In this document: piece by piece, positions 1,861-63,343 of the stretch
Layout: every line of letters starts with the position of its first letter
How positions within the stretch are numbered: the stretch's first letter is position 1
NCBI GenBank assembly: GCA_951406725.2
Contig: OX597814.1
Coordinates: forward strand, 119,350,001 to 119,414,000
Reading direction: 5' to 3'
DNA: 64,000 bases
From: Octopus vulgaris
Lineage: Eukaryota
The notes under the pieces: generated by a model
The model's input: only the letters and a program-made list of their open reading frames with translations
The model's database searches: none
What the model was told of the DNA's origin: nothing
Position numbers and translations under genes: made by a program

Positions 1861-2305
1861 TGTCCTCATCTTGTTTGTTGTTAACAAAACGTTTCGGCTG
1901 ATATACCCTCCAGCCTTCTTCAGGTGTCTTGGGGAAATTTCGAAACTTGGTTCTCATTCCTAAAGTATTTTCGATGTTATTATTATTATTATTGTTGTTG
2001 TTGTTGTTCAGGTCACTGCTTGGAAATGAACTCGGAATCTTGGGGCTAGTAGCCCGCGTTCTTAAATAGTGGCTAAGATACCAAGCAGTGACCTGAGCAA
2101 TAATAATATTAATAATAATAATAATAATAATAATAATTATTATTATTATTATTATAACATCGAAAAATACCTTAGGAATGAGGACCCACGTTCAAAATGT
2201 CCCCAAGACTCCTGAAGAATGCTGGAGGGTATATCAGCTGAAACGTTGTGTTAACAACAAACAACATGAGGACAAATATCCGTCGAATGTAAATACTGTA
2301 AATAA
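1861..2305. mobile_element. Head-to-head pair of a tRNA-headed SINE-like element carrying a minimal hammerhead ribozyme
   Basis: 1861-2065 (-) and ~2067-2305 (+) are inverted copies. Layout: tRNA-like head (TAGTGGYTAAG A-box, GAGTTCATTTCC B-box-like), (AAT)n/(AAC)n spacer, then CTGAAGA-A-GGCTG..CAGCC-GAAACGTT. Confidence 0.7.
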
Positions 2306-2334
2306 CTACAATATAGAGTATATATTTATATATA

Positions 2335-2765
2335 TGGTTGACTGGACACCTTATTAGAATGAAGGATAGCAGGATCCCTAAGCAGATGCTTTATGGGGAA
2401 CTTGTGAATGGAAAGAGACCTCAGCAGAAACCAAGGCTGGGATTTATGAACTGTGTCAAGTCCTCATTAAAGGCCTGTGATGTTCACAGATGAAGGAAAC
2501 AGGTTAAGGACGGATTCGACACCTTTGAGGGATCACGTATTCTGCAAGAAGAACTTAAGCATGCTGTTCGAAAGCGTACTGCTGATGTAATGAACGGGGA
2601 AATCTTGGTGTGTAATGTTTGCAGTCGTATAAGCGTTTCAAGAGCAAGGGCCATTAGCCACCATCGGAGCCGCAAATATAAAATATAAGTTAGTCCTAGA
2701 GAGCACAATGTTCCTGAAGGCCAGCAGTGGTCTTCCTCGGTGACCAGTGGATGGCCGTCATATGT
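2335..2765 (+). mobile_element. RTE-clade LINE 3' fragment (decayed)
   Basis: Translates TGHLIRMKDSRIPKQMLYGELVNGKRPQQKPRLGFMNCVKSSLKAC and later VCNVCSRISVSRARAISHHRS, typical of an RTE/BovB ORF C-terminus. Confidence 0.85.
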
Positions 2766-2916
2766 GAAAGAGCTATAAGGTGTTACTGAAGCACTCAACT
2801 ATGAATCCACTTTGCCATCTCATTTTGTAACTACCGTTCTGTACACTGCTAGCGCTTCGCTCTAAAATCTATCGAGTTCTACACCAGGTTTTTAGTATTG
2901 CAGTGCCCACGCGACA

Positions 2917-3144
2917 GGCGGCGAGCAGGCAGAATCGTTAGCATGGAGGGCGAAATGCTTAGCGGTATTTCGTCTGCCGTTACGTTCTGAGTTCAAATTC
3001 CGCCGAGGTCGACTTTGTCTTTTATCCTTTCGGGGTCGATAAATTAAGTACCAATTACGCACTGGGGTCGATGTAATCGACTTAATCCCTTTGTCTATCC
3101 TTGTTTGTCCCCTCTATGTTTAGCCCCTTGTGGGAAATAAAGAA
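2917..3144 (+). mobile_element. tRNA-derived SINE family A (Nin/Deu-like central domain), full length
   Basis: GGCGGCGAGC..GCAGAATCGTTAG head, GAGTTCAAATTCC B-box, TTTATCCTTTCGGGGTCGATAAATTAAGTACC core; at least five other copies in the window. Confidence 0.85.
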
Positions 3145-60280: not shown

Positions 60281-60992
60281 TTTTAAATAAAATATAGTAG
60301 TCTTTCCCTTGCTTCAGTAGAGGAATAGTGATTATTTATATATATATATATATATATATATATATATATATATACATACATACATATGGGGGGGGGGGGG
60401 GCATGTATACATACACACACATGTGCACCAGTGACGGTGAGGAGATTTAATAATGGGCACTTTTAACATAAAATAACAACATTGCTACATAGATAGCGTT
60501 GTACTTAGTTTTTTTTTTTTGGCATAGATAGTTGAGAAAAAACTAAGTCTTTTCGTTCATATAAGCAAGACAATGAAATTCTTATTCTACATATTAATAC
60601 TGTGCGTGGAACTGCGTAAAAAACTTGAAAGAGGAAAGAAATGAACGTTTTAAAATTTGAGTTTGGGTAAAATAGTGCTAGATGTGAGTCCGGATAGAGG
60701 TCCATTGTTTATGATTTTAAGCAAACGTTTTTAGAGACAGATCTGATTTAACAACATGGAAGTCGAATTTACCAAGCGAAATATTTGAATATTTGCGGAA
60801 TGCCATCGTATGAACAAGCATACTCGCGTACATTGATACACGCGCATAAACATATCTATATATAGGTTAATGATCCCCATGGGATCACTATGTGTGCCAT
60901 CCTGCAGCCTTATTTCTGCCTGTATTCAGATTGGCTGATAAAAAGTGTAATTCCTAGCAACGTAACTATATATATATATATATATATATATA

Positions 60993-61266
60993 TATCTATA
61001 CAATATGTTACATTACTCGGTAGTCAAGATAAAACTCTGAGTTTCAGATGCCGAAGTGGAAATCCACAACACCATCTCTTCGGTTATCTGGCTATTTTCT
61101 AGCCAGATAACCGAAGAGATGGTGTTGTGGATTTCCACTTCGGCATCTGAAACTCAGAGTTTTATCTTGACTACCGAGTAATGTAACATATTGTATAGAT
61201 AAATTTCCTCTATTTACATAATATTGAGGTCTCTTTCTTTCTTTTGTTATCTTACCGTTTTATCAA
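60993..61266 (+). mobile_element. PLE-type end with 102-bp perfect hairpin and U4C hammerhead-like motif
   Basis: Arms 60993-61094 / 61100-61201; AGATAA-CCGAAGA-GATG..CATCT-GAAACT(CAG)AGTT^TTATCT at 61105-61167. Confidence 0.75.
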
Positions 61267-61336
61267 TATATATATATATATATATATTCCCTAATATTTA
61301 TTATTATTATTATATATATATATATATATATATATA

Positions 61337-61976
61337 TTATAAATAGGGTTCAGCAAAGATTTGCCTTACCGCATACCGAAGTTTAGAAATAGCAGCCAGA
61401 GAACCTTAGCTATTTCCTCTACTTTAAAAAGAGATTCCTGGACAAAAGCAAAGTACTCGAAAACAATCCACGCAGGCAGAGAGGAAAAATGACGAAAATC
61501 AATCGATATTTGATTACCTATGTACGCGTTTCGGAATTAGATCGGTATAAAGAATGTAGAATTTATACTTTACCCGGAACACTTTCCTCATCAGCATGGG
61601 ACTTCACAATATTAAATCCGGAGGCACTGGATGAATTGAATATACCTCTCTAAATAACAGTATCAGACAGATCATATTCAATGTCCAGTACCGCCGAATT
61701 TAAAATATACGAATGAGGTTCATTACCCTCCCCTGCCTATCCACGTGTGTCGTCAAGTATAAAAATACTACAGAAAAATCTGTAGTTTATTATCCGGGAG
61801 AAAATTATATTATCAATAATAACAAAGGGTAAAATTAATTAATTAACTAGTAATCAATAATTTCACCAAGTATAATCCGGCATGAAAAGGGACCTTTTCT
61901 CGGTAAACTTAAGTAATATTTTATAATTAGGGTTCAGTAAAGATTTTTTTTACCACATACCGAAGTTTTAGAAATA
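61337..61976 (-). mobile_element. Retrozyme-like element (~584-nt monomer) in (TA)n
   Basis: Direct repeat 61337-61391 / 61921-61976; HHR on the minus strand. Confidence 0.8.
61517..61600 (-). ncRNA. Type I hammerhead ribozyme, canonical core, long stem II
   Basis: Minus strand CCCATG-CTGATGA-GGAA...TTCC-GAA-ACGCGT-A^CATAGG. Confidence 0.82.
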
Positions 61977-63343
61977 TATATATATATATATATATATATA
62001 TATATATATATTGTGTGTGTGTGTGTGTGTGTGTGTAAAGAGGTATAAATACAAAACTGGATCGACAGCTATCAAATAATCACACCTAGAAGTTCGCATC
62101 GCACATCTTAACTCAACTAAAATTAGAGCATTCCACGAGAATAGTTTTCATAAGTAATTCAAAATATAAGAAATCATTGGCTGCTACAACGTATAATTAA
62201 AAAAAAAAAGAGTGGAATTAAAGAAACATGCGAAGATATAACAAGTAGATACGCATACATATTAGTTCAACTTCAACATATATATATATATATATATATA
62301 TATATATATATATATATATATATATATATATATATATATATATATTTAGTTATGTTTCTAGCAATTACACATTTTATCACACAATCTGAATACAGACAGA
62401 AATATGGCTGCAGGATGGCACACATAGCGATCTCATGGGGCTCAACGCAAAAACGAACAGAGGGGCAAGTCGAGAACGAACTAGATGCAATCTGCCGACA
62501 CCATAGTGTGTCTTCCTGAGGATATGAACATCTCACTGAGGTGGCGAAGCGAGAAATAAATTAAAATATAAATCCAGTAGCTTCTGGACAATAATAGATA
62601 CACACATATATAAGTATGCATATATATATATATATATATATATATATATATATATATATATATATATATATATATATATATATATATATTTCGCTTCGCC
62701 ACCTTAGAGAGATGTTCATATATATATACGTATTTAGAATGAAAAATAAACAGATAACAGGGTAAGGATATTAGTAGGAGGGGTAAGGAAAGTAAAGGCG
62801 GAGGATTAAATATTGTAACTGTTGCCCGAGATACGCCAGCACATTATATACACATATTTACACTTATGTGAGTACGAACGCACATAAATATGCTTGTATA
62901 AATATTCATATATATAAATATGTAGTAACTCTCTTAGTGCATAGATACGTATGGGTGTGTGTGTGTGTAAACAGTATGAGTGACTAATTCGCAATTTTGC
63001 AACATAAAGTCAGAAGAATATGCGTCACTAAAGGGAACAAGAGCATTAACCAGCACCAGTATTGCTAGAAATAAGAACCAAAACAACTCAATAACAACAA
63101 AAGTACTATCTTAATGAGCTGGCAAGCTATTGAGTTGTTTTGGCTCTTATTTCAGGTAATACTAGTGCTGGTTAATACTCTTGTTATAATTTTGCATTAT
63201 AATAATTTTATATAGAATATATTGTGTTAAAAGAATCGCTAGTTTATCTGTCAACTACTAACTTGGGTGGTGATCAGTATTTTTTTATCTGAAGCTTCTC
63301 GTTGTTTATGTATTTGTGTACTAGGTGCTGCGTTTATCTTTTG

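What the first reader, a model, noticed from the sequence alone, without database searches (positions are those of the whole stretch)
1861..63185. A dense guild of hammerhead-ribozyme retroelements (PLE ends and retrozymes) colonising (TA)n microsatellites, with co-varying catalytic cores
Seen: about ten sequence-distinct families of short insertions carry a type I HHR layout (stem I - nUGAnnA - stem II - GAAA - short, often palindromic stem III - NUH - stem I). They lie at ~1891/2212, 7321, 9217/24729, 37708, 40196, 41855, 52146, 52679, 54523, 61105 and 61517. Most abut TA repeats and show a terminal direct repeat and/or an inverted 5' segment. Positions 3 and 8 stay complementary: C-G, U-A (52684, 41855, 30689) or G-C (9224, 24770). 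Established: PLEs and non-LTR retrozymes carry minimal type I HHRs, PLE insertions often show inverted or partial-tandem ends, and C3-G8 is a tertiary Watson-Crick pair of the active fold. Inference: this is a cephalopod system of ribozyme-processed, possibly circular, 300-600 nt RNAs mobilised by PLE RT/GIY-YIG proteins like the one at 49569. Standard CUGAnGA searches would miss many of them. I cannot check whether these particular families are already described.
Basis: partly seen in the sequence, partly recalled or inferred. Interest (0 to 1): 0.85.

Follow-up and report, generated by a model that had tools for sequence, protein, structure and literature searches.

The report
Penelope retroelement ends with hammerhead ribozymes
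The window is littered with hammerhead-ribozyme motifs that are the short ends of five Penelope-like retrotransposon families plus non-coding tandem 'retrozymes' likely moved by the same enzymes, a known arrangement, but one family has swapped a catalytic base pair in over 5,000 copies and was likely copied from capped, uncut RNA.

Summary
Observation largely confirmed. A relaxed type I hammerhead descriptor finds 14 window hits, 13 with a Watson-Crick 3-8 pair (shuffles: 5.1 and 1.45). Ten of the eleven listed sites fit the layout; 41855 has A13C; the extra site 30689 is single-copy and unsupported.

It is a mixture, not one guild. Five families are truncated 3' pseudo-LTR ends of protein-coding Penelope-like elements (two Hydra-type, three Neptune/Nematis-type). 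Four are 325-585-nt tandem-unit retrozyme-type elements, and two are short non-coding elements. PLE hammerheads, U3-A8 cores, retrozymes and (TA)n targeting are published.

Not found in eight literature searches: (1) a natural G3-C8 core in over 5,000 copies; (2) in that family, 32 of 66 copies start 55-63 nt upstream of the predicted cut and 1 at it, with an extra G in 66 of 100, so templates were likely capped and uncut; (3) abundant families with likely weak or dead cores (A13C, U4C); (4) a retrozyme with PLE insertion marks (two fixed 3' ends, inversions). Cleavage and circles are untested. The scan noted similar PLE-type tandem repeats in other genomes.

The parts
1861..2311 (.). F1: inverted pair of a roughly 400-nt non-coding element with a C3-G8 hammerhead (cores at 1923 minus and 2212 plus; both decayed). 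No PLE ORF found beside it.
   Evidence: 1,987 exact hits; no PLE protein match in 25 loci
7112..7512 (+). F2: retrozyme-type 1.2-mer, unit about 325 nt, C3-G8 hammerhead 7319-7366. A relative forms near-identical 359-nt arrays.
   Evidence: (L002)
7766..7853 (+).
   Evidence: 3 relatives in 800 kb
9107..9406 (+). F4: short pseudo-LTR copy with inverted 5' arm and tail. G3-C8 hammerhead 9217-9266, predicted cut 9259|9260.
24590..24794 (-). F4: second copy (core 24770). Starts at 24793, at the family's 5' pile-up, with the extra G at 24794; ends with the tail in (TA)n.
37502..37875 (.). F6: inverted pair of the 3' pseudo-LTR of a Neptune-type PLE, C3-G8 (cores 37658 minus, 37712 plus)
   Evidence: 365 exact hits; RT/GIY-YIG ORF upstream in longer copies
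39934..40330 (+). F7: old retrozyme-type element, unit about 343 nt, hammerhead 40196-40242 with U4C throughout the family
41748..41995 (.). F8: inverted pair of the 3' pseudo-LTR of a Neptune-type PLE. U3-A8 with A13C and two stem I pairs (core 41855); likely inactive.
   Evidence: 2,428 hits
48669..49560 (-). F9: inverted arm of the Hydra-type PLE, with tail and a hammerhead (core 48955) whose loop II holds a 54-bp duplication
   Evidence: (I1)
49569..50690 (+). F9: 5'-truncated ORF (373 aa, C-terminal GIY-YIG-type endonuclease of the Hydra pattern); 976-984-aa copies lie elsewhere in G000
50691..52265 (+). F9: 3' UTR and pseudo-LTR with C3-G8 hammerhead 52146-52236, predicted cut 52230|52231, ending in (TA)n
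52288..52758 (+). F10: retrozyme 1.1-mer, unit 362 nt, with inverted 5' segment. U3-A8 hammerhead 52679-52719, predicted cut 52714|52715.
   Evidence: 388 hits
54422..54596 (-). F11: truncated copy of a roughly 210-nt SINE-like element (core 54553). Most other copies seen carry U4C; no protein-coding partner found.
61001..61267 (.). F12: inverted pair of the 3' pseudo-LTR of a short Hydra-type PLE (tandem period about 2.58 kb), U4C core (61083 minus, 61111 plus)
   Evidence: 3,335 exact hits; ORF upstream in longer copies
61346..61975 (-). F13: retrozyme-type 1.08-mer, unit about 585 nt, C3-G8 hammerhead 61517-61600

Best explanation
These motifs are type I hammerheads lying in the short 3' ends of five protein-coding Penelope-like retrotransposon families and in non-coding tandem or SINE-like elements that likely borrow the same enzymes, and they were likely inserted by target-primed reverse transcription into (TA)n from RNA that, at least in the G3-C8 family, was likely capped and not cut by its ribozyme. 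The PLE protein likely nicks (TA)n and starts copying at one of two internal sites about 60 nt apart, which gives two fixed 3' ends. It usually stops early and often inverts the 5' part. In F4, starting at the site nearest the cap would yield a 150-210-nt copy running from an initiator-like start through the intact hammerhead, which would explain why solo hammerhead ends outnumber long copies. In the retrozymes the enzyme runs across the cut site and past one unit length, so the template is a circle or an uncut multimer. The ribozyme likely serves to trim or monomerise tandem transcripts and is likely not needed for insertion. Shown: layout, family structure, ORF linkage, end positions, extra G. 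Inferred: capping, priming site, which enzyme moves which passenger, any cleavage.
For: ORF linkage: F9 hammerheads flank 976-984-aa ORFs on both sides. F4 follows ORFs of up to 1,025 aa with PF01541. F8 follows an ORF with PF00078 above cut-off. F6 and F12 follow PLE ORFs. Two 3' ends: F4 39 tailed and 27 short of 66; F10 25 of 30 rows end at unit positions 168-178 or 228-237 (some rows are the same insertion). F4 5' ends: 32 of 66 at -63..-55, 1 within 3 nt of the cut, 7 longer, 24 in between, 2 downstream. G precedes that start in 66 of 100 listed copies, 47 of 81 after removing 19 that the inverted arm could template (hand count); long genomic copies have C or T there. An untemplated 5' G is read as a cap mark for L1 (PMC9341517 passages). 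An anole PLE starts reverse transcription internally, uses unprocessed RNA, does not need its hammerhead for insertion, and C3G/G8C partly restores its cleavage (PMC11167929). Retrozyme units: no ORF over 30 aa, circular fold z -5.7 and -4.2, insertions up to 5.7 units with inversions. Families with likely impaired cores are abundant.
Against: No cleavage, cap or circle was observed. The extra G was not seen in F8 (0 of 100, mostly long copies) or F11, so the capped-template step is shown for one family only. No full-length F4 copy with a direct 5' pseudo-LTR running into the RT ORF was found in four long loci, so priming on the full mRNA versus on short solo transcripts is not separated. F4's RT domain scored weakly in Pfam (E 0.1) and rests on motif alignment. 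No protein partner was found for F1, F11 or the retrozymes. Loop II varies far more than the stems across F4 subfamilies (0.155 against 0.014-0.057 per site), which suggests the fold is still selected and the ribozyme matters at some step.
Confidence: 0.75

Rival explanations
1. One reading: all families are ribozyme-cut, circular 300-600-nt RNAs replicated by PLE proteins.
For: Fits F10, F2, F7 and F13: tandem units, no ORF, stable circular fold, 5' ends spread round the unit. Circles are shown for mussel, coral and axolotl retrozymes (PMC7229834 passages).
Against: Five families are ends of protein-coding elements. F4 copies begin upstream of the cut with an extra G. A13C and U4C families amplify well.
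Confidence: 0.12
2. The F4 pile-up marks a splice acceptor or a structural stop of the reverse transcriptase, not a capped start.
For: The upstream sequence in long copies looks like a branch point, pyrimidine tract and AG. PLE pseudo-LTRs hold introns near the hammerhead.
Against: Copies keep the AG itself, gain a G that the genome does not template, and share no exon sequence further upstream. An internal promoter with an initiator is known for Penelope (PMC2377424 passages).
Confidence: 0.12
3. The hammerheads are catalytically irrelevant relics; G3-C8 and U3-A8 arose by drift and the fold is kept, if at all, for protein binding.
For: A13C, U4C and 223 G3-G8 copies. Naiad PLEs thrive without canonical hammerheads.
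Against: 16 of 20 multi-locus clusters keep a Watson-Crick 3-8 pair in three different forms. Palindromic stem III and stems I-II persist while loops change.
Confidence: 0.2
4. The motifs are chance matches in AT-rich, hairpin-rich repeats.
For: True for 30689 and probably 14810 and 18902; the descriptor was tuned after seeing the sites; shuffles give up to 5 Watson-Crick hits.
Against: 13 against 1.45 in the window; 39 against 0.6 C-G in blind samples; fixed position in PLE pseudo-LTRs.
Confidence: 0.02

Closest known systems
Minimal type I hammerheads of metazoan PLE pseudo-LTRs (Cervera and de la Pena 2014, PMC4209133; parts 1-2 of 4 read)
   Same: Unpaired base before stem II, short palindromic stem III, thousands of mostly solo copies, opposite-strand pairs, a U3-A8 variant (about 1,300 hits in Schistosoma).
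   Different: G3-C8, A13C and family-wide U4C cores are not in the text read; no end mapping there.
Hydra and Neptune/Nematis EN+ PLE clades (Craig et al. 2021, PMC8557442; passages, section 11, supplement search)
   Same: F9 has RWK, DKT, CxCX5C, CxxC and CxH, lacks CCHH and ends in (TA)n; the F12 stretch read shows the same endonuclease pattern. [quoted passage not shown]
   Different: F9 repeats are 4.6 kb apart, longer than the usual under 3 kb. Clades were assigned by motif, not by tree. The two Octopus rows seen in that supplement (of 4 occurrences) are Naiads.
Non-LTR retrozymes of animals (Cervera and de la Pena 2020, PMC7229834, passages; Li et al. 2026 preprint 10.64898/2026.07.22.740005, part 1 of 5 and passages)
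   Same: 325-362-nt tandem units, one type I hammerhead per unit, no ORF, self-paired fold, coexistence with PLEs.
   Different: Here the insertions themselves show PLE marks (two fixed 3' ends, 5' inversions, TA targets); the passages read argue from co-occurrence and phylogeny. F10 has U3-A8; F13's unit is 585 nt. Expression as circles is untested.
Anole Poseidon element in vitro (Frangieh et al. 2024, PMC11167929; parts 1-2 of 4 read)
   Same: Two internal start sites defining the tail, AT-rich targets, unprocessed RNA as template, engineered C3G/G8C partly active.
   Different: F4 offers genomic, in vivo evidence (5' pile-up with extra G) and carries the G3-C8 swap naturally.

Membership tests
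Type I hammerhead ribozyme | Core and three stems closed by stem I | tested here: met
   for F1-F4, F6, F9, F10, F13; F7, F11, F12 carry U4C
Type I hammerhead ribozyme | Invariant A13 and a stable stem I (F8, 41855) | tested here: not met
   C13 in 20 of 20 loci, two stem I pairs
Type I hammerhead ribozyme | Self-cleavage after position 17 | not testable with these tools
   only contigs were available
EN+ Penelope-like element (F4, F6, F8, F9, F12) | Single ORF with RT then GIY-YIG | tested here: met
   F8 PF00078 E 2.9e-7 and PF01541 E 2e-4; F9 PF00078 E 4.5e-4, below cut-off; F4 PF01541 E 1.8e-5, RT weak at E 0.1 with motifs aligned to F8; F6 and F12 by tblastn
EN+ Penelope-like element (F4, F6, F8, F9, F12) | Pseudo-LTRs with hammerhead flanking the ORF | tested here: met
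   both sides for F9; tandem period for F12; 3' side only for F4, F6, F8
EN+ Penelope-like element (F4, F6, F8, F9, F12) | 5' inversions and optional tail | tested here: met
EN+ Penelope-like element (F4, F6, F8, F9, F12) | Placement of RT in the PLE clade by phylogeny | not tested
   no reference set was fetched
Hydra clade (F9, F12) | RWK, DKT, CxCX5C, CxxC, CxH, no CCHH, (TA)n targets | tested here: met
   F9 all motifs; F12 endonuclease half only
Hydra clade (F9, F12) | Generally under 3 kb | tested here: inconclusive
   F12 2.58 kb; F9 4.6 kb; a tendency, not a rule
Non-LTR retrozyme (F10, F2, F7, F13) | Tandem units of a few hundred bases, each with a type I hammerhead | tested here: met
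   F13 seen only as partial tandems
Non-LTR retrozyme (F10, F2, F7, F13) | Non-coding, strongly self-paired unit | tested here: met
   F10 and the F2 relative; F7 and F13 not folded
Non-LTR retrozyme (F10, F2, F7, F13) | Accumulates as circular RNA | not testable with these tools

The most novel reading that the evidence does not exclude
F4 is a natural, active G3-C8 hammerhead that reached the swap through a mismatched G3-G8 state still preserved as 223 genomic copies, and the thousands of solo hammerhead ends in animal genomes are capped by-products of PLE priming at the site nearest the mRNA cap, so junction maps report in vivo whether each ribozyme cut its RNA.
Probability: 0.3. Interest if true: 0.62.

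Novelty: new variant of a known kind. Interest (0 to 1): 0.42.

Why it matters
What PLE hammerheads do is still open. This genome offers natural experiments: one family with the G3-C8 swap known so far from engineered mutants in the papers I could read, families that spread with A13C or U4C cores, and thousands of junctions that record whether the template was cut. The F4 junctions support in vivo the in vitro claim that unprocessed RNA is the substrate. The F10 junctions are direct structural evidence that retrozymes are moved by PLE machinery. The broad picture (PLE hammerheads, retrozymes, TA targeting) is already known, which caps the interest.

Tried and rejected
Strict descriptor: missed most sites. 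Rfam: no hammerhead among the 150 rows shown. Pfam on the window ORF alone: no hit. PDB sequence search with the F4 protein: none. DNA search with the F4 end: empty, because common words are skipped. 30689: single-copy. 14810 and 18902: weak, and the one relative of 18902 does not keep the layout. Pile-up of 5' ends at the predicted cut: not found in F4 (1 of 66) or F10 (the window's own copy starts at unit position 4; the rest are spread). Extra G as a general rule: not seen in F8 or F11. G3-G8 as ancestral: the tree of 23 long copies did not resolve it; 43 of 100 listed G3-G8 copies cluster on C16, which inflates the count. A C3-G8 sister of F4 with the same flanks: 0 of 100 listed. RNA evidence: no RNA holder listed; contigs guessed to be RNA cover F9 and F10 but cannot show ends or circles. 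Minimum-energy folds show stems I and II in several monomers but do not model the catalytic core. Lunse et al. 2017 on PLE hammerhead variants was not held; I saw only its title in a reference list, and it may report G3-C8. The preprint's supplements could not be seen. The extra-G figures are a hand count, and element boundaries are read from the rulers.
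Full report
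Setting. The window lies on C1 of G000, a 2.8-Gb animal assembly in 227 contigs, rich in (TA)n.

Is it there? A strict type I descriptor found two Watson-Crick hits. Allowing one unpaired base at stem II and U or C at position 4, with positions 3 and 8 free, gave 14 hits, 13 with a Watson-Crick 3-8 pair; 100 local shuffles gave 5.07 and 1.45. In 800 kb sampled blind, hits scoring 10 or more were 39 C-G, 12 U-A, 5 G-C and 4 A-U of 97, against 0.6, 5.3, 0.9 and 4.6 of 36. Clustering 274 hits from about 1.3 Mb of loci, partly chosen for F4, F8, F9 and F10, gave 20 multi-locus clusters: 11 C-G, 4 U-A, 1 G-C, 4 non-pairing. (TA)n lies within 200 nt downstream of 58% of 52 sampled hits against 14.5% of random points, and upstream of 29%. 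Two sites fail: 30689 is single-copy, and 41855 has C13 in 20 of 20 loci with two stem I pairs.

What the families are. Five are ends of protein-coding PLEs. F9: the ORF at 49569 is a truncated copy of a family with at least 150 matches; 976-984-aa copies have the hammerhead on both sides and every Hydra motif listed in PMC8557442 section 11. F12: 3,335 exact hits with U4C, tandem period about 2.58 kb, Hydra-type ORF upstream. F6 and F8: Neptune-type ORFs upstream, 365 and 2,428 hits. F4: follows ORFs of up to 1,025 aa with a GIY-YIG domain and CX3CxxC linker. Four are retrozyme-type: F10 (362 nt; 388 hits), F2 (relative in 359-nt arrays up to 5.7 units), F7 (about 343 nt, U4C) and F13 (about 585 nt). 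F11 (about 210 nt, both ends fairly fixed) and F1 (about 400 nt) are non-coding with no partner found.

The G3-C8 family. Two disjoint patterns give 1,876 hits (98 of 100 listed G3-C8) and 3,380 hits; inverted insertions count twice. Loop II varies between subfamilies while the stems hold. G3-G8 occurs 223 times against 163 for A or U at position 8 (26 A and 74 U of 100 listed), so it is about five times the other transversion. It sits in older loop types (10 of 57 non-C16 copies have the rarest loop, against 3 of 100 G3-C8), but 43 of 100 lie on C16 and the tree is unresolved. An intermediate is possible, not shown. Searches returned G3-C8 only as an engineered variant (PMC3884650 passages; PMC11167929); Perreault et al. 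(PMC3088659 passages) and Cervera 2014 report natural U3-A8. Lunse 2017 could not be read.

Was the template cut? Copies picked by a 32-mer 28 nt downstream of the predicted cut (66 copies, both arms of inversions counted) start at -63..-55 in 32 cases, within 3 nt of the cut in 1, further upstream in 7, in between in 24 and downstream in 2. The base before that start is G in 66 of 100 listed copies, or 47 of 81 without those the inverted arm could template (hand count), where long copies have C or T. The site matches a recalled initiator consensus, and such a G is read as a cap mark for L1. The simplest reading is a capped, uncut template. Given internal priming near the ORF start in the anole element, priming at the cap-proximal site would give the observed 150- and 210-nt copies; this step is inference. 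F6 short copies also seem to share a start upstream of the core (read by eye, sample chosen on the core). F8 and F11 show no extra G.

Retrozyme insertions. For F10, 25 of 30 rows end at unit positions 168-178 or 228-237, mostly in (TA)n; 5' ends are spread over the unit, many with an inverted segment; runs reach 630 nt. The unit has no ORF over 30 aa and folds as a circle with z -5.7. These are PLE insertion marks on a non-coding passenger. Circle versus uncut multimer cannot be told apart here.

RNA. No run on record as RNA holds the stretch. Three runs guessed to be RNA cover F9 and F10 and show more A-to-G places (13-16) than X15 (5), three of them absent from X15. Without matched DNA this is only a hint and is not used as evidence.

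Known versus new. PLE hammerheads, solo copies, palindromic stem III, U3-A8, retrozymes in molluscs, a PLE origin of retrozymes and (TA)n targeting are published. Searches found no paper on these families, on a natural G3-C8 core or on cap-G at PLE ends; the library lacks most subscription journals. Earlier scan notes describe PLE-type tandem repeats in TA in other genomes; none exists for this genome.

Verdict. Real and well spotted; a new variant of a known kind. Interest 0.42.

Noticed in passing
G000:C16, about 0.6-10.6 Mb: Older F4 copies, many with the mismatched G3-G8 core and one loop type, are concentrated on this contig arm: local amplification or targeted insertion.
   Followed up: partly
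window 52121, 52150, 52161: A-to-G differences in three runs guessed to be RNA and absent from X15, in and beside the F9 hammerhead stems: possible A-to-I editing of the ribozyme.
   Followed up: no
window 48829-48939: A 54-bp tandem duplication inside loop II of the inverted F9 hammerhead.
   Followed up: no
   Followed up: no
L027 and L414/L229: PLE families inserted into one another or stacked through shared (TA)n: the F4 3' UTR follows an F8 ORF fragment, and F12 follows an F8 end.
   Followed up: no
L002:2500-4950: A near-identical 5.7-unit array of a 359-nt retrozyme with an inverted arm: the best candidate for a currently active element and for assays.
   Followed up: partly
clusters not in the window (e.g. 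L075, L077, L007, L110): At least eight further multi-copy hammerhead families, including two more U3-A8 families, one resembling F8 but with intact A13 and a six-pair stem I.
   Followed up: no
window 42373-42656: An exact 143-bp tandem duplication, unrelated to the hammerheads.
   Followed up: no
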